A stretch of 64,000 nt of DNA, taken from positions 43,445 through 107,444 of the forward strand of contig CAVYUC010000017.1 of NCBI GenBank assembly GCA_963771595.1. The letters are read 5' to 3'. The notes under the pieces are model-generated. The model was not told where the DNA came from, made no database searches, and saw only the letters and a list, made by a program, of their open reading frames with translations. Within the stretch, counting starts at the first letter, position 1. Each line of letters opens with the position of its first letter. This DNA is from an uncultured Prolixibacteraceae bacterium (lineage in GTDB: Bacteria > Bacteroidota > Bacteroidia > Bacteroidales > Prolixibacteraceae). This document shows, one piece after another, positions 5,722-64,000 of this stretch. A program made the translations under genes and the position numbers.

Positions 5722-6546
5722 TTAAACGTTAAATTCCGTCCCCTCCACAAGTTTTCGCAGAATCAACGTCATTTTGGGTTCAGCTTTCATAGCCACCTGC
5801 TGCACTTCTTCGTGCGAAATTTCCACAATTTCGCCCGGAACACCGCTGTCGGTAACTATTGAAATTCCAAACACTTTCAATCCCATATGATGTGCAACAA
5901 TTACTTCGGGAACTGTTGACATTCCCACAATATCGGCCCCGAAAATGCGAAACATCCGGTATTCGGCAGGCGTTTCAAATGTTGGTCCCTGAACGCCAAT
6001 GTAAATCCCTTCCTTTAACTGAATTTTATGTTCCTGCGCAATTTCTTTGGCTTTATCAATTAATTGCTGATTGTAAACTTTGCTCATATCAGGAAATCGC
6101 GGTCCCAGTAAATCATTGTTGGGACCATGAAGCGGATGTTCCGGAAAAAAGTTAATGTGATCGTTGATTAAAACAATGTCGCCCACACGCCATTCGGGAT
6201 TTAAACCGCCGGAAGCATTGGACACAAAAAGGTGCGTTATTCCAATAAATTTCATCACGCGCACCGGAAAAGTGACTTCTTTCATCGAATAACCTTCGTA
6301 ATAATGAAACCGTCCCTGCATAGCCAGCACGGGTTTATCGCCCAATTTCCCGTAGATAAGACGGCTGGCATGGCCCTGAACTGTGGACACCGGAAAACCG
6401 GGGATTTCGTTGTAAGGAATTGAATCCAGGATTTCGATTTCGTTTACCAGTCCCCCTAATCCTGTTCCCAGGATAATGCCGATTTCAGGACTGGCGTTTA
6501 TTCTTTCTTTTATATAATTCGCGGTTGCTTTTATTTTCTCCAACAT
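5722..6546 (-). CDS. Purine nucleoside phosphorylase (trimeric PNP/PunA type)
   Basis: Motifs are GIILGTGLG, RFHYYEGY, SNASGGLNP, GPxFETPAEYRM and GADIVGMSTVPEV. Confidence 0.85.
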   Translation of the reverse strand: MLEKIKATANYIKERINASPEIGIILGTGLGGLVNEIEILDSIPYNEIPGFPVSTVQGHASRLIYGKLGDKPVLAMQGRFHYYEGYSMKEVTFPVRVMKFIGITHLFVSNASGGLNPEWRVGDIVLINDHINFFPEHPLHGPNNDLLGPRFPDMSKVYNQQLIDKAKEIAQEHKIQLKEGIYIGVQGPTFETPAEYRMFRIFGADIVGMSTVPEVIVAHHMGLKVFGISIVTDSGVPGEIVEISHEEVQQVAMKAEPKMTLILRKLVEGTEFNV

Positions 6547-7591
6547 AACCTAAAATTCTTTTATTGAACGATTTCCCGTCTTCTCCAAGAAACCGCACTT
6601 TCACAGGTAAATAATATAATAATTCTTTAATTTGTTCATCAATGCCGGCCATTTCCTTCAACCGTACTGCATCCTTTTCGGTGGTAACAATTATTTTATT
6701 TGCCGAATCCATAGCAATGAATTTACTGCTGATTGTCCGGATATCTTCATCAGTAAAATTATGATGATCAGGAAACTGCAGTGTTTCAAGCCGATTGGAA
6801 ACACCTTCCAGATATTTAAATATAAGCAGAGGCGAAGCAATACCCGTTACGGCCAAAATATCGTATTTTTTCCCCGGAATTGATTTATCGAATAATACAG
6901 GGGCCGAAAATACAGGTAAAAATTTATCGTAAACAAGCGTGGTAAAAAACATCTCCTGGTATGGTTTCAGGTGAACTCCATTTTCCATAACCCGCCGCAT
7001 AATGGGCGTAATTTCGCCTGGACATTTGGTGAAAATAATGATGCTGGCGCGGTGTCTTTGGAAAGCGCTTTCGCGAAGATGCCCAGCCGGTAAAAGCATA
7101 TCGTCTTTTATCGGGCGGTTGTAATCGATAAGCAAAATATTTATTCCCGGCGTTATCTGCCGGTGCTGGTAGGCGTCGTCGAGCAAAATAACATCCGGAA
7201 TTTTTATTTCCTGAGCCCGCATGATTTTATCAACACCCACTACCCGTTTTTCGCAAACTGAAACCGAAACATCCCGGAATTTTCGCTTCATCTGCAGCGG
7301 TTCGTCGCCCACATCGGCAACTTTAGAATTCTCTTCGACCCAAAAAAAACCACGGGTTTTACGTTTATAGCCGCGGCTTAAAGTAACCACTTCGAATTTA
7401 TCCTTTAAAAGTTCGATTAAATATTCCACGTGCGGTGTTTTTCCCGTGCCGCCAACTGTAATGTTGCCGATGGATATAACCGGTACTTCAAACTCTGTGG
7501 ATTTCAGAATATTTAAATCGTACAGGCGGTTGCGAACAAACACAACCAATCCATACAAAACCGAAAAAGGAAATAAAATTAATTTCTTCAT
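6485..7591 (-). CDS. lpxK: Tetraacyldisaccharide 4'-kinase
   Basis: It has the P-loop GNITVGGTGKTP, then SRGYKRK and DDAYQH. The 3' end overlaps the PNP start by 62 nt. Confidence 0.85.
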   Translation of the reverse strand: MKKLILFPFSVLYGLVVFVRNRLYDLNILKSTEFEVPVISIGNITVGGTGKTPHVEYLIELLKDKFEVVTLSRGYKRKTRGFFWVEENSKVADVGDEPLQMKRKFRDVSVSVCEKRVVGVDKIMRAQEIKIPDVILLDDAYQHRQITPGINILLIDYNRPIKDDMLLPAGHLRESAFQRHRASIIIFTKCPGEITPIMRRVMENGVHLKPYQEMFFTTLVYDKFLPVFSAPVLFDKSIPGKKYDILAVTGIASPLLIFKYLEGVSNRLETLQFPDHHNFTDEDIRTISSKFIAMDSANKIIVTTEKDAVRLKEMAGIDEQIKELLYYLPVKVRFLGEDGKSFNKRILGYVGENKSNRELYKRKNKRQS

Positions 7592-61490: not shown

Positions 61491-61748
61491 ATGGATCAGG
61501 AAAAAAATAAAGAACCGCAAAAACCGAAGGAAAAGGAAAATTTTCAGGAAAAAACAGATAAGTGGATCGATAAAGCAGAAGAATATATCGACGATAAGGC
61601 AGAAAAAATACACGACAGCAAAACGTACAAAAAAGCCGATAAATCGATGGAAAAAGCTACAAAAAATATTTTCCGCAAAGCCGGGCGGTTGTGGGGAAAA
61701 TCGGAGCGGTATTTTAAATCCGGAAACAAAAAAAACAAACCGGAATAA
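61491..61748 (+). CDS. Small lysine/glutamate-rich hypothetical protein
   Basis: It is 85 aa from the ATG at 61491, highly charged (KEKE-like), with no TM segment. Coding status is uncertain. Confidence 0.4.
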   Translation: MDQEKNKEPQKPKEKENFQEKTDKWIDKAEEYIDDKAEKIHDSKTYKKADKSMEKATKNIFRKAGRLWGKSERYFKSGNKKNKPE

Positions 61749-61784
61749 TATTTTCAGTCGGGCAAACTTTCAACTACCACCACC

Positions 61785-61824
61785 CTCCGCCAAACAGGCG
61801 GAGTACCCCTCCTCAAAGGAGGGG
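61785..61824. repeat. GC-rich double-hairpin element A (hairpin-GGAGTACCC-hairpin)
   Basis: CTCCGCC-aaaca-GGCGGAG is followed by TA and then CCCCTCC-tcaaa-GGAGGGG. Confidence 0.7.
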
Positions 61825-61925
61825 AAACATTCTTAGTCCATACAAAATGTATTATTCCAATGTTTTCTCCTGCTCCTTATTCCAAAAATTTTCCGTGCAC
61901 CAAACAATATATGTAGTATAAATTT

Positions 61926-61966
61926 CTCCTCCTAGGAGGAGTACCCGAGGTACTAGGGGGAGGTGG
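61926..61966. repeat. GC-rich double-hairpin element B (same orientation, shares GGAGTACCC core)
   Basis: The CTCCTCCTAGGAGGAG palindrome overlaps GTACC-cga-GGTAC and is followed by TAGGGGGAGGTGG. Confidence 0.7.
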
Positions 61967-62048
61967 CTCTTAAACCCTGTTTCAAAATATTGATACAAAC
62001 AAACAACCGACTGAACCTGTTTAATTTTAAAGCATTAACACCACATAT

Positions 62049-62582
62049 ATGGACAAATTATTTTTTCAATCGTGGGAAAGCCTTGGCCGGATAACTGTTA
62101 TCACCATACTGGCTTATATCTCACTGATAATTATTTTAAGGATTACCGGTAAACGCACGCTGTCAAAAATGAATGCCTTCGATTTTATAATTACAATCGC
62201 ATTGGGTTCTTCTTTTGCCACGGTAGCCTTAAATAAAAGCATACCGCTTGTTGATGGAGTGTGGTTGTTATTTCTTTTAGTTATTCTCCAGTTTATTATC
62301 ACGTGGCTGTCGGTTCGGATTAGCAGATTTAAAAAGTTGATAACGAGTCAGCCTAGTTTATTGGTTTATAAAGGAAACATTTTGCACGGTGAACTGAAAA
62401 AACACCGGGTGACTATTGAAGAGCTCTATGTGGCAGCCCGAAAAAAAGGTATCCCTGACATTTCAGGAATCGATGCCGTTATTCTTGAAACCACCGGCGA
62501 TCTCACCATAATTGAAACATTGGATTCAAAAGATGTTCAAACACTCAGCGATGTGGAGAAAACTCCTGTTAATAAGGAGTAG
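62049..62582 (+). CDS. DUF421 (YetF-like) membrane protein
   Basis: It has N-terminal TM helices with LRITGKRTLSKMNAFDFIITIALGS, and a C-terminal soluble domain. Confidence 0.7.
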   Translation: MDKLFFQSWESLGRITVITILAYISLIIILRITGKRTLSKMNAFDFIITIALGSSFATVALNKSIPLVDGVWLLFLLVILQFIITWLSVRISRFKKLITSQPSLLVYKGNILHGELKKHRVTIEELYVAARKKGIPDISGIDAVILETTGDLTIIETLDSKDVQTLSDVEKTPVNKE

Positions 62583-62649
62583 AAATAAAGATAACGGGCA
62601 ACATGGAAACAGCAAAAAAGGATGGCATTTCGACCTTTTTTTGAGAATA

Positions 62650-62859
62650 GTTCCTCCAATCCGTCAGCGGATTGAACAATAATAGCCGTAGGTGCAATCT
62701 ACGGGTTTAACACGTGGTGTTGGCAATCCGTTAATGGATTGAACAGGTGAATAAAATAAACATCTGCAGTTAATTTGCCCTTTCAGGGCGCTGCCCGTGG
62801 TCTGTTTCCCATTCCCGGGGCGGTGCCGCCGGGCTGAATTAATATGTCCTTTCAGGACG
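62650..62859 (+). repeat. Palindrome-dense 210-bp repeat unit, copy 1
   Basis: It contains CAATCCG-tcag-CGGATTG (62657-62674), CCGTAG-gtgcaat-CTACGG (62686-62704), AACAC-gtg-GTGTT (62709-62721), CAATCC-gttaat-GGATTG (62724-62741), GCCCT-ttc-AGGGC (62777-62789), a GC-rich GGCGGTGCCGCC segment, and GTCCT-ttc-AGGAC (62846-62858). Confidence 0.85.
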
Positions 62860-62981
62860 AGGAGGCTGTAGCTATTCAACAAGCCATAAGCATGTGGCAA
62901 AATCGTAATAGAAAAAATATTATTCAGAAACAAAGGAGCAGAGCACCGAAATATAAAATGAATATTGCGATCCGGTAAATG

Positions 62982-63190
62982 GTTCCTCCAATCCGTAAGC
63001 GGATTGAACAATAATAGCCGTAGGTGCAACCTACGGGTTTAACACGTGGTGTTGGCAATCCGCTAATGGATTGAACAGGTGAATAAAATAAACATCTGCA
63101 GTTAATTTGCCCTTTCAGGGCGCTGCCCGTGGTCGTTTCCAATTCCCGTGGCGGTGCCGCCGGGCTGAATTAATATGTCCTTTCAGGACG
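62982..63190 (+). repeat. Palindrome-dense repeat unit, copy 2 (~97% identical to copy 1)
   Basis: It has the same order of palindromes, offset by 332 bp. Apart from two changes in a segment for which I propose no pairing (see the finding), differences fall in loops or convert G.T to G-C. Confidence 0.85.
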
Positions 63191-63561
63191 GAAAACAACA
63201 ATAATTATTTGCAAATAACCCTGAACTGCGGGCAGTCAGAAAAAAAACATTCTTATGTTGAACAAAAAACAACTGTTTTATTCTGTTTTTATTTGGAATA
63301 TTATAGCATTTTTCTAATTTAGATGGCTTAAATATTTGAACGTCACCAACCTGACAAAACATCATTTTAAACTAAAGATTAAACAAAAAACCTGACGCAT
63401 GGAACACCAAAACCAGAACCACACCGGCAAATACGGGCCGGATTCCTTCTGTTAAATAAACAAAAACGAAAATAAAAAAAGCCAACTGCACAGTTAAAAG
63501 CTTACAGGTGGTCCGCAGGCAAATAATATTTATTTTTTATAAACCAATAAAATCATCTACT

Positions 63562-63885
63562 ATGGGATCTTTGAATGATAATGAAAAAAGAGCTTTTATA
63601 GCTGAAACTGTTACGATTACTTCTCAGAAAACATCAACGTTAACTGCTGCCGGGTACGACCCGCTAAACCGGTTAACACAGTTACAAACCAAAGTAGCCA
63701 CTGCCGACGAAGCTGAGGCTGCACAGCAAATTGCGGCGGTGGCAGCAAAAGAAGCTACGCTGGCTGCACAGAATGCACTTACGGAGGCATATAAAGATGC
63801 GTCTGCAATGATTGACCTTTTTGAAGGGCTGCTGGGTAAAGACAACTCTCTTGTTTTTCAACTCAGGCAACTGAGAAAAAAATAA
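63562..63885 (+). CDS. Small alanine-rich helical hypothetical protein
   Basis: It is 107 aa from the ATG at 63562 (MGSLNDNEKRAF...). It looks predominantly helical by eye (ATADEAEAAQQIAAVAAKEATLAAQNAL) and I recognise no family. Confidence 0.45.
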   Translation: MGSLNDNEKRAFIAETVTITSQKTSTLTAAGYDPLNRLTQLQTKVATADEAEAAQQIAAVAAKEATLAAQNALTEAYKDASAMIDLFEGLLGKDNSLVFQLRQLRKK

Positions 63886-64000
63886 CAAGTTCACAGGTCC
63901 TGTTTTTTTTGCCCGCGGCAGGGCCTGTACTTAAAATCCCCCGACACTCCTAAATCTTTTCATTTCCATTTTTACATCTTGCTTGAGTCTGAAGATTCCT

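What the first reader, a model, noticed from the sequence alone, without database searches (positions are those of the whole stretch)
62583..63561. Two tandem ~210-bp repeat units, each a string of short palindromes, in a 979-bp gene-free tract
The region between the DUF421 gene and the next plausible ORF has no credible coding potential. The only ORFs there (62664-63029 and 62924-63142 on the minus strand, 63107-63322 on the plus strand) read straight through the repeats. The tract holds two direct copies (62650-62859 and 62982-63190, period 332 bp, ~97% identity) of a unit made of seven consecutive short palindromes. Two of these are near-identical, CAATCCG(N4-6)GGATTGAAC. I counted six differences between the copies. 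Two are in hairpin loops (tcag/taag and gttaat/gctaat). One turns a G.T closing pair into G-C (CCGTAGg..tCTACGG versus CCGTAGG..CCTACGG). That pattern is tolerated only if the plus strand is the folded strand. The rest are a 1-nt indel and two substitutions in the segment GGTCTGTTTCCCATTCCCGGGG versus GGTC-GTTTCCAATTCCCGTGG, for which I propose no pairing. Change concentrated in loops and wobble pairs is what a structured RNA or a ssDNA-hairpin element would show, not random drift. There are no terminal inverted repeats, no adjacent transposase, integrase or cas gene, and no family I can name.
Basis: seen in the sequence. Interest (0 to 1): 0.7.

Follow-up and report, generated by a model that had tools for sequence, protein, structure and literature searches.

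The report
Gene-less hairpin modules from a Y1-transposase element
The two repeats are real, but their first ~110 bases are a copy of a three-hairpin DNA module that brackets a small IS200-like (Y1/HUH) transposase gene in many bacteria, so this is a REP/BIME-like mobile-element remnant and not a new RNA gene.

Summary
Observation confirmed: two direct copies (62646-62859 and 62978-63190, 96-97% identical) lie in a gene-free tract, each made of short palindromes. A 98.7%-identical relative (L001) carries only one copy.

The 5' ~110 nt of each unit (hairpin A1, then AAC-AAnAATA, hairpin P2, a linker, hairpin A2, then AAC) belongs to a dispersed family. A covariance model built from 40 copies scores the two window copies at 75-77 bits and hits nothing else in the 64 kb. 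In public contigs the module sits just upstream of, and inverted just downstream of, ~148-aa Y1_Tnp genes. This held for all 5 genes chosen independently from a protein search, and for 8 loci found by DNA pattern. Gene-less copies are scattered: 9 contigs of one metagenome share only the module.

14 of 19 stem pairs show compensatory changes. The transposases fit TnpA_Y1 "subclass 1.2", for which the defining survey (PMC6006769) reported no REPs.

The 3' ~100 nt of the unit is specific to this lineage. It may be a diverged inverted copy of the module, but that support is weak.

Verdict: a REP/BIME-like element derived from a Y1 transposase element. The instance is ordinary. The family-level link may be undescribed. 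No promoter, terminator or Rfam family supports a dedicated RNA gene.

The parts
62646..62859 (+). Repeat unit, copy 1 (214 nt): three-hairpin core plus a lineage-specific GC-rich tail
   Evidence: Direct repeat families D1 and D2; sequence
62649..62757 (+). Core module, copy 1. A1 is CAATCCG/CGGATTG at 62657-62674, followed by AAC and AATAATA. P2 is CCGTAGG/TCTACGG at 62686-62704. A small hairpin lies at 62709-62721. A2 is CAATCCG/TGGATTG at 62724-62741, followed by AAC.
   Evidence: Covariance model R1, 74.6 bits, E = 1.7e-13; aligned to the model
62758..62859 (+). Tail of copy 1. It holds hairpins GCCC-TTTCA-GGGC (62777-62789), CCCGG..CCGGG (62814-62833) and GTCC-TTTCA-GGAC (62846-62858). 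It may be a diverged core in inverted orientation.
   Evidence: No homologue in 45 related loci. Sub-threshold Acido-Lenti-1 hit at 62814-62859, 26.8 bits against gathering score 37. Weak R1 hit on the minus strand at 62761-62869, 6.5 bits.
62860..62977 (.). 118-nt unique spacer between the copies. It is absent from relative L001. Together with one unit it makes the 332-bp presence/absence difference.
   Evidence: blastn of L001 against the window. No similar sequence in other loci. The 44-aa ORF is not on record.
62978..63190 (+). Repeat unit, copy 2 (213 nt)
62981..63089 (+). Core module, copy 2 (A1 62989-63006, P2 63018-63036, A2 63056-63073)
   Evidence: R1, 76.8 bits, E = 5.3e-14. Its 30-nt AACAATAATAGCCGTAGGTGCAACCTACGG is identical to the core upstream of the Y1 gene in L107.
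63090..63190 (+). Tail of copy 2
   Evidence: Weak R1 hit on the minus strand at 63093-63200, 9.8 bits. The two TGAAA-loop end hairpins align to A1 and A2; the middle does not align.
63168..63276 (+). Possible decayed third core. It comprises the last unit hairpin, AAAACAACAATAA, the palindrome TTATTTGCAAATAA, and AACAT-TCTT-ATGTT followed by GAAC.
   Evidence: R1, 15 bits, E = 0.006 in a 1.1-kb search. Also present in L001.

Best explanation
Each unit is a gene-less, REP/BIME-like derivative of the ends of a Y1 (HUH, IS200-like) transposase element.

Shown: the first ~110 nt of each unit (A1 hairpin, AAC-AAnAATA, P2 hairpin, linker, A2 hairpin, AAC) is the same three-hairpin module that brackets ~148-aa Y1_Tnp genes in Bacteroidota, Cloacimonadota, Planctomycetota and Verrucomicrobiota contigs. 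One copy ends just before the start codon. An inverted copy begins right after the stop codon. The same module also occurs without a gene, alone, in tandem, or as inverted doublets, at unrelated loci.

Inferred: as for IS200/IS605 TnpA and RAYT/REP, the Y1 enzyme recognises these hairpins as single-stranded DNA. The nearly invariant GAAC-AAnAATAGCC linker would be part of the recognition or cleavage site. Gene-less copies are then either moved in trans or left behind when the gene is lost. The tandem pair here, against one unit in a 98.7%-identical relative, is a recent gain or loss of one unit plus a 118-nt spacer. The lineage-specific 3' tail may be a diverged inverted core. That would make each unit a REPIN-like doublet laid out as A1-P2-A2 ... 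A2'-P2'-A1', which is the arrangement around a Y1 gene with the gene missing.

Any RNA-level effect, such as acting as a 3'-UTR structure of the DUF421 mRNA, would be secondary.
For: Family membership:
- R1 scores the two window cores at 74.6 and 76.8 bits.
- 30 of 30 nt are identical to a Y1-flanking core in L107.

Association with Y1 genes, starting from DNA:
- Pattern scans gave 19 genome loci and 26 metagenome loci.
- tblastn finds intact Y1 genes next to the module in L081, L085, L093, L102, L103, L104, L106 and L107, and Y1 fragments in L100 and L108.
- The sequences show core(+)-ATG...stop-core(-).
- The L081 protein matches PF01797 at E = 4.9e-22.

Association with Y1 genes, starting from protein:
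- Across the 11 Y1 loci, 10 of 11 have an upstream core in the gene's orientation. 9 of the 10 loci with downstream sequence have an inverted core there.

Hairpins are under selection:
- 93.3% of cells are paired, against at most 57% when the 3' partners are slid by one column or more.
- 14 of 19 pairs carry double changes; 0 of 500 shuffles reach the observed values.

Dispersal and clustering:
- 9 contigs of metagenome Ga0114934 share only the 90-150-nt module at 84-98% identity.
- Tandem and inverted clusters are seen in L085, L090, L097, L098, L101, L103, L107 and L123.

Polymorphism in this lineage:
- L001 has one unit and the window has two.
- L113, 99.9% identical to the window, ends inside the unit. 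That is typical of an assembly break at a repeat.

No support for a dedicated RNA gene:
- No Rfam family at gathering score and no promoter or terminator signal above background.
Against: - No Y1 gene lies in the 64-kb window, and the rest of the genome is unknown. A transposase acting in trans is therefore unproven for this organism.
- Only two copies, at one locus, are seen in 64 kb. High copy number in this genome is not shown.
- The 3' ~100 nt of the unit and the 118-nt spacer have no homologue anywhere I could search. The inverted-core reading rests on 6.5 and 9.8 bits.
- The variable sites of L001 resemble copy 2 at the one 5' site and copy 1 at the three 3' sites. That does not fit a simple deletion by crossover between the two copies, so the direction of the indel is unresolved.
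- No cleavage or transposition has been shown for this Y1 subclass.
- The covariation alignment was fitted to the model, and many of the sequences are related to each other.
Confidence: 0.78

Rival explanations
1. The unit is a stand-alone structured small RNA gene, duplicated in tandem and transcribed from the + strand. Its hairpins would be protein-binding sites. It may have been exapted from a mobile-element end.
For: The + strand fold is strong (-93.7 kcal/mol, z = -5.8) and better than the - strand. Substitutions in this lineage fall in loops or make G.U wobbles on the + strand. The 3' tail is lineage-specific and has a sub-threshold Acido-Lenti-1 match at E = 0.002.
Against: The same module occurs in both orientations around Y1 genes and next to unrelated genes. 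There is no Bacteroidota-type or sigma-70-type promoter above background, and no + strand terminator after the unit. No Rfam family reaches its gathering score. Copy number differs between near-identical strains.
Confidence: 0.12
2. The units are relics of full Y1 elements that decayed in place after internal deletion of the gene. On this reading they were never mobilised in trans, and the tandem state arose by ordinary recombination.
For: Y1 gene fragments lie next to cores in L100 and L108, so decay in place does happen. The unit layout of core(+) followed by a possible core(-) mimics a gene-less element.
Against: No trace of Y1 coding sequence lies between or near the cores in the window. 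Tandem same-orientation cores are common in the family, which suggests amplification of the module itself. This rival is a sub-case of the main explanation and not a different kind of object.
Confidence: 0.25
3. It is a cis-regulatory leader or 3'-UTR element, or a CRISPR-like repeat-spacer-repeat mini-array, specific to the DUF421 gene and the 107-aa gene.
For: The units lie between two co-oriented genes. The two CAATCCG..GGATTGAAC hairpins resemble a pair of CRISPR repeats ending in ATTGAAC.
Against: The flanking genes differ in every locus. The would-be spacer is itself a conserved hairpin (P2) with compensatory changes. No third repeat or unique spacers are present. PADLOC finds nothing in the neighbouring genes.
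Confidence: 0.03

Closest known systems
REP/BIME sequences with their RAYT (TnpA_REP) gene, the 'REPtron' of E. coli and Pseudomonas
   Same: Short extragenic palindromes occur singly, in tandem clusters and as inverted doublets. The single Y1 HUH transposase gene is flanked by the same palindromes in inverted orientation. No target-site duplication is seen. The stems covary.
   Different: The repeated object is a ~110-nt composite of three hairpins with a conserved GAAC-AAnAATAGCC linker. It is not a single 20-40-nt palindrome with a 5' GT[AG]G. The associated protein is not a class-2 RAYT: NF047646 scores 23-26 bits against a cutoff of 80. The copy numbers seen are low, not hundreds per genome.
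IS200/IS605 family (TnpA Y1 with subterminal hairpins)
   Same: The protein matches PF01797, and its best NCBIfam match is IS200/IS605 transposase at 51-64 bits around a cutoff of 55. Hairpins lie at the ends of the gene.
   Different: IS200/IS605 ends are different hairpins on the same strand (from my knowledge of the family and from PMC6006769). Here the two ends are inverted copies of one module. Gene-less copies also exist.
TnpA_Y1 subclass 1.2 of Quentin et al. 2018 (PMC6006769)
   Same: Length is 145-149 aa. The motifs are [DN]H[LIV]H, WQ and YI.NQ.EHH, with a conserved C-terminal tail. These match the published signature (148 aa, DH[IV]H, WQ, YIKNQKEHH).
   Different: [quoted passage not shown] Here every gene examined has structured inverted modules, and the taxa include Cloacimonadota, Planctomycetota and Verrucomicrobiota.
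Acido-Lenti-1 RNA motif (RF01687)
   Same: Two hairpins joined by an AU-rich linker resemble 62814-62859 (26.8 bits, E = 0.002).
   Different: The score is below the gathering score of 37. Copy 2 scores only 20.3 bits. The motif is described from other phyla. I treat it as a lead only.

Membership tests
REP/BIME (classical) | Short imperfect palindromes in extragenic DNA | tested here: met
   Hairpins of 13-20 nt lie in a 979-bp gene-free tract.
REP/BIME (classical) | Conserved GT[AG]G tetranucleotide at the 5' foot of the hairpin | tested here: not met
   The conserved flank is GAAC 3' of the hairpin, which reads GTTC 5' of it on the other strand.
REP/BIME (classical) | Many dispersed copies within one genome | tested here: inconclusive
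   The 64-kb window holds only two copies, at one locus. Nine contigs of one metagenome share only the module. Two MAGs each carry it on two contigs. The whole genome of the source was not available.
REP/BIME (classical) | A cognate class-2 RAYT (TnpA_REP) gene flanked by the repeats in inverted orientation | tested here: not met
   The flanking arrangement is met. The protein fails NF047646 (23-26 bits against a cutoff of 80) and fits class 1 subclass 1.2 instead.
Y1 subclass-1.2 terminal three-hairpin module (defined here) | A1 hairpin, AAC-AAnAATA, P2 hairpin (GCCGT...ACGG), linker, A2 hairpin, AAC; scored by model R1 | tested here: met
   74.6 and 76.8 bits, full-length 1-110 matches.
Y1 subclass-1.2 terminal three-hairpin module (defined here) | Adjacent Y1_Tnp gene | tested here: not met
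   No Y1 homologue in the window. The window copies are gene-less copies.
IS200/IS605 insertion sequence | tnpA (PF01797) between non-inverted left and right ends whose hairpins are on one strand | tested here: not met
   The ends are inverted copies of one module. No tnpA lies in the window.
REPIN (inverted REP doublet) | Two copies in inverted orientation separated by a short spacer | tested here: inconclusive
   Clear in L097, L098/L101 and L123. In the window the inverted partner scores only 6.5 and 9.8 bits.
MITE | Terminal inverted repeats and a target-site duplication | tested here: not met
   No duplication is visible at the junctions of the 332-bp indel between the window and L001.
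Rfam families (any), including Acido-Lenti-1 RF01687 | Score at or above the gathering threshold | tested here: not met
   No hit at gathering score in the window or in 18 related loci. The best sub-threshold score is 26.8 against 37.
CRISPR array or creTA-like mini-array | Identical repeats separated by unique spacers, with cas genes nearby | tested here: not met
   The segment between the two hairpins is a conserved, covarying hairpin. Only two 'repeats' occur per unit. PADLOC finds nothing in the neighbours. cas genes were not searched for across the whole window.

The most novel reading that the evidence does not exclude
The window copies are gene-less members of a REPtron-like system that appears not to have been described. 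In it, TnpA_Y1 subclass-1.2 genes across FCB and PVC phyla are bracketed by inverted copies of a ~110-nt three-hairpin module, and the module also spreads or persists without the gene. The survey that defined this subclass reported no REPs and no terminal structures for it. If the reading holds, the subclass would be a structural intermediate between IS200-type insertion sequences and domesticated RAYT/REP systems.
Probability: 0.5. Interest if true: 0.5.

Novelty: new variant of a known kind. Interest (0 to 1): 0.4.

Why it matters
For this window the result is deflationary. The striking string of palindromes is debris or a satellite of a mobile element, not a new riboregulator.

At family level it gives a concrete sequence-and-structure definition (model R1) of the DNA partner of a Y1 transposase subclass that was thought to lack one. 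This makes three things testable: which strand and site the enzyme cuts, whether gene-less modules move in trans, and how IS200-like elements turned into REP/RAYT-type systems. It also flags a repeat class that breaks metagenome assemblies in Bacteroidota and related phyla.

Tried and rejected
- Rfam, at gathering score on the whole window and on 18 related loci, and at E-value threshold on 61500-64000: nothing except a sub-threshold Acido-Lenti-1 match.
- blastn of the region against plasmids and phages: no match.
- Three scans of viral contigs. The single-hairpin pattern gave 65 hits, each a single match with no similarity to the unit beyond the hairpin. The core pattern and the tail pattern gave none.
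- CRISPR-like or creTA mini-array: rejected because the 'spacer' is a conserved covarying hairpin.
- Resemblance of GTTCAATCC (the reverse complement of GGATTGAAC) to a tRNA T-loop: rejected because that sequence lies in the stem, not the loop.
- Promoter scans (Bacteroidota -33/-7 consensus and sigma-70) and a terminator scan: none at the units and nothing above background on the + strand.
- Searching the 121-aa ORF that reads through the repeats, to find other copies through spurious gene calls: no hits.
- Exact look-up of the 44-aa spacer ORF: not on record.
- Using G.T versus A.C counts to fix the folded strand for the whole family: inconsistent between alignments.
- Literature search for a REP/RAYT description in Bacteroidota after 2018: nothing relevant found in the held library. 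The search was not exhaustive.

Full report
**1. The observation**

The tract between the DUF421/YetF gene (62049-62582, Pfam) and the next ORF (63562-63885, 107 aa, no Pfam hit) holds two direct copies. They are 62646-62859 and 62978-63190, 96-97% identical, with a spacing of 332/331 nt.

- CAATCCG-N5-GGATTGAAC occurs four times on the + strand, only in the units, against 0.11 matches expected by chance.
- The + strand folds at -93.7 kcal/mol (z = -5.8). The - strand folds at -70.7 (z = -3.2).
- The ORFs that cross the repeats have no relatives.

**2. A close relative has one copy**

The DUF421 protein is also encoded on ENA contig ERZ25039483:contig_43987 (L001). L001 is 98.7% identical to the window from 61811 to 64000 but carries a single unit. 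The window therefore has 332 extra bases, made of one unit plus a 118-nt spacer that matches nothing else I hold.

A second contig of the same sample (L113) is 99.9% identical to the window from 63173 onwards. It ends inside the last hairpin of the unit, as expected for an assembly break at a repeat.

The L001 unit differs from the window copies in loops, in a G.T-to-G-C change, and in AACAC/GTGTT becoming AATGC/GTGTT. The last change gives two wobble pairs on the + strand only.

The informative sites of L001 resemble copy 2 at the one 5' site and copy 1 at the three 3' sites. That is not what a simple deletion by crossover between the two copies would give. The direction of the indel is open.

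**3. Known RNA families and nearby sequence collections**

Rfam gives nothing at gathering score in the window or in 18 related loci. The only weak hit is Acido-Lenti-1 on 62814-62859, at 26.8 bits against a gathering score of 37. Plasmid, phage and viral collections hold nothing related.

**4. The family**

A scan of 185,579 species genomes for the two-hairpin pattern gave 19 loci. A metagenome scan for GGATTGAACAANAATAGCCGT gave 26 loci.

Prolixibacteraceae, Maribellus and Cloacimonadales contigs share the first ~100 nt of the unit: A1 hairpin, AAC-AAnAATA, P2 hairpin, linker, A2 hairpin, AAC (alignment A1). The 3' half of the window unit is not shared.

Ignavibacteria, Kapaibacterium and other Bacteroidota MAGs carry clusters of the simpler CAAYYCC..GGRRTTG-AAC hairpin with covarying stems. 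These include a >3-kb tandem array in L085.

**5. Link to a transposase**

The module lies directly beside a ~148-aa Y1_Tnp gene in L081, L085, L093, L102, L103, L104, L106 and L107 (PF01797, E = 4.9e-22 for L081; tblastn). L100 and L108 carry gene fragments beside it.

The sequences show one core ending 15-60 nt before the ATG and an inverted core starting at the stop codon. In both cases A2 is nearest the gene.

To remove the bias of having found these loci by DNA pattern, I took five homologues from a protein search, chosen only for long contigs. P0085 is named Planctomycetes by its source and P0097 Verrucomicrobia. All five have model-R1 cores on both sides in inverted orientation, at E = 1e-7 to 1e-17. 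Across the 11 gene loci, 10 have the upstream core in the gene's orientation. Of the 10 loci with downstream sequence, 9 have the inverted downstream core.

**6. Structure**

I built a covariance model (R1, 110 positions, 19 pairs) from 40 distinct cores. It finds 92 matches in the loci held. In the window it finds only 62649-62757 (74.6 bits) and 62981-63089 (76.8 bits).

On the resulting alignment:
- 93.3% of cells pair, against at most 57% when the 3' partners are slid by one column or more.
- 14 of 19 pairs show changes on both sides.
- No shuffle out of 500 reaches the observed values.

Two caveats apply. The alignment was fitted to the model, and many of the sequences are related.

The most conserved part is not a stem but the linker GAAC-AAnAATAGCC. 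I infer that it is part of the recognition or cleavage site.

Strand asymmetry at family level is not robust. G.T versus A.C is 18 versus 4 in helices 2 and 3 of A3. It is 8 versus 9 in the gene-flanking set.

**7. Dispersal**

Nine contigs of metagenome Ga0114934 share only the 90-150-nt module, at 84-98% identity, and several of these contigs end in it. Tandem cores in the same orientation (L090, L103, L107, L101) and inverted doublets (L097, L098/L101, L071, L075, L123) are common.

No Y1 gene lies in the window. The window units are therefore gene-less copies.

**8. The 3' half of the unit**

It has no homologue elsewhere. Read on the minus strand, it has the layout of a core. It starts with a hairpin with a TGAAA loop (GTCC/GGAC), followed by an AT-rich linker. 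A GC-rich hairpin beginning GCC comes next, then a linker, then a second TGAAA-loop hairpin (GCCC/GGGC).

R1 gives weak positive scores exactly there: 6.5 bits at 62761-62869 and 9.8 bits at 63093-63200. The two end hairpins align but the middle does not. If this is real, each unit is core(+) followed by a diverged core(-), which is the arrangement around a Y1 gene with the gene missing. I rate this as plausible but unproven.

A further decayed core may follow copy 2, at 63168-63276 (15 bits).

**9. What is known**

The flanking proteins have [DN]H[LIV]H, WQ and YI.NQ.EHH motifs, a conserved C-terminal tail, and lengths of 145-149 aa.

This fits TnpA_Y1 subclass 1.2 of Quentin et al. 2018 (PMC6006769). 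[quoted passage not shown]

NCBIfam places the proteins at the IS200/IS605 model (51-64 bits against a cutoff of 55). They fall far below the REP-associated tyrosine transposase model (23-26 bits against 80).

The system therefore works like REP/BIME plus RAYT. It shows inverted palindromic modules around a single Y1 gene, gene-less copies elsewhere, and no target duplication. However, it fails two defining features of that family: the GT[AG]G tag and a class-2 RAYT. It also fails the IS200/IS605 end architecture. I found no paper describing it, but the library is not complete.

**10. Verdict**

The claim that it belongs to no family is wrong, and nothing supports a dedicated RNA gene.

The instance itself is ordinary: a strain-variable, gene-less hairpin module in an intergenic region that also borders a restriction-modification system and IS4-type transposases in the relative.

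The moderate interest lies in the family-level finding. A Y1 transposase subclass that was reported to lack structured ends or REPs in fact has a conserved three-hairpin module on both sides, together with satellite copies.

Noticed in passing
L085:4580-8000: A tandem array more than 3 kb long. It has at least 10 units of ~315-424 nt, each holding 3-5 'TTGAAC' hairpins plus one on the opposite strand. The units run in the same orientation on both sides of a Y1 gene (6492-6926, minus strand). This is far larger than any other cluster seen.
   Followed up: partly
L104:3869-3978 and L106:7417-7526: Two otherwise identical contigs differ only in the P2 hairpin of the core downstream of the Y1 gene (CCGTAGGTGAAACCTACGG versus CCGTCCCGAGCGTTCGGGACGG). 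The second type also occurs in another core of L104 and in L071. It looks like cassette-like conversion between two coexisting P2 types.
   Followed up: no
L001:5330-5830 (begins just beyond window 64000); L113:1375-1760: Downstream of the 107-aa gene lies an array of ~30-nt GGTCAGA(A/G)..TGAC(T/C)CAG repeats, followed by repeated GGATGGCATCGCT motifs. L113 carries extra copies of a ~180-nt block. An EcoRII-type restriction-modification system (L001) or an HNH/NOV_C gene set (L113) follows, so the region is variable.
   Followed up: no
window 61811 / L001:3460: Similarity between the window and L001 stops at window 61811. Upstream of that point L001 has two DDE_Tnp_1 (IS4-like) transposase genes, where the window has the TonB-dependent receptor-like gene and a 94-aa Lys-rich ORF.
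   Followed up: no
window 62814-62859 and 63160-63190: Sub-threshold match to Rfam Acido-Lenti-1 (RF01687): 26.8 and 20.3 bits against a gathering score of 37. The G-to-T change in copy 2 breaks the first hairpin of that match. Whether Acido-Lenti-1 is itself a REP-like motif was not examined.
   Followed up: no
L074:7290-7400 and L076:5430-5540: Runs of N (masked sequence) directly adjoin the tandem CAATCCC..GGGATTGAAC-GTTTGTAG hairpin repeats in two Ignavibacterium album contigs, so the full extent of those arrays is hidden.
   Followed up: no
window 63203-63216: A perfect 14-nt palindrome, TTATTTGCAAATAA, sits in the position of P2 in the possible decayed third core.
   Followed up: no
L071:2526-2637, L075:800-916, L072:6916-7015: In Prolixibacteraceae MAGs the core is preceded by an inverted partial core plus another hairpin (GAACCC-TTTCGA-GGGTTC and CACCCGCC..GGCGGGTG). 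GGCTATTATTGT upstream can pair with ACAAAAATAGCC in the core, giving a long-range stem typical of a REPIN.
   Followed up: partly
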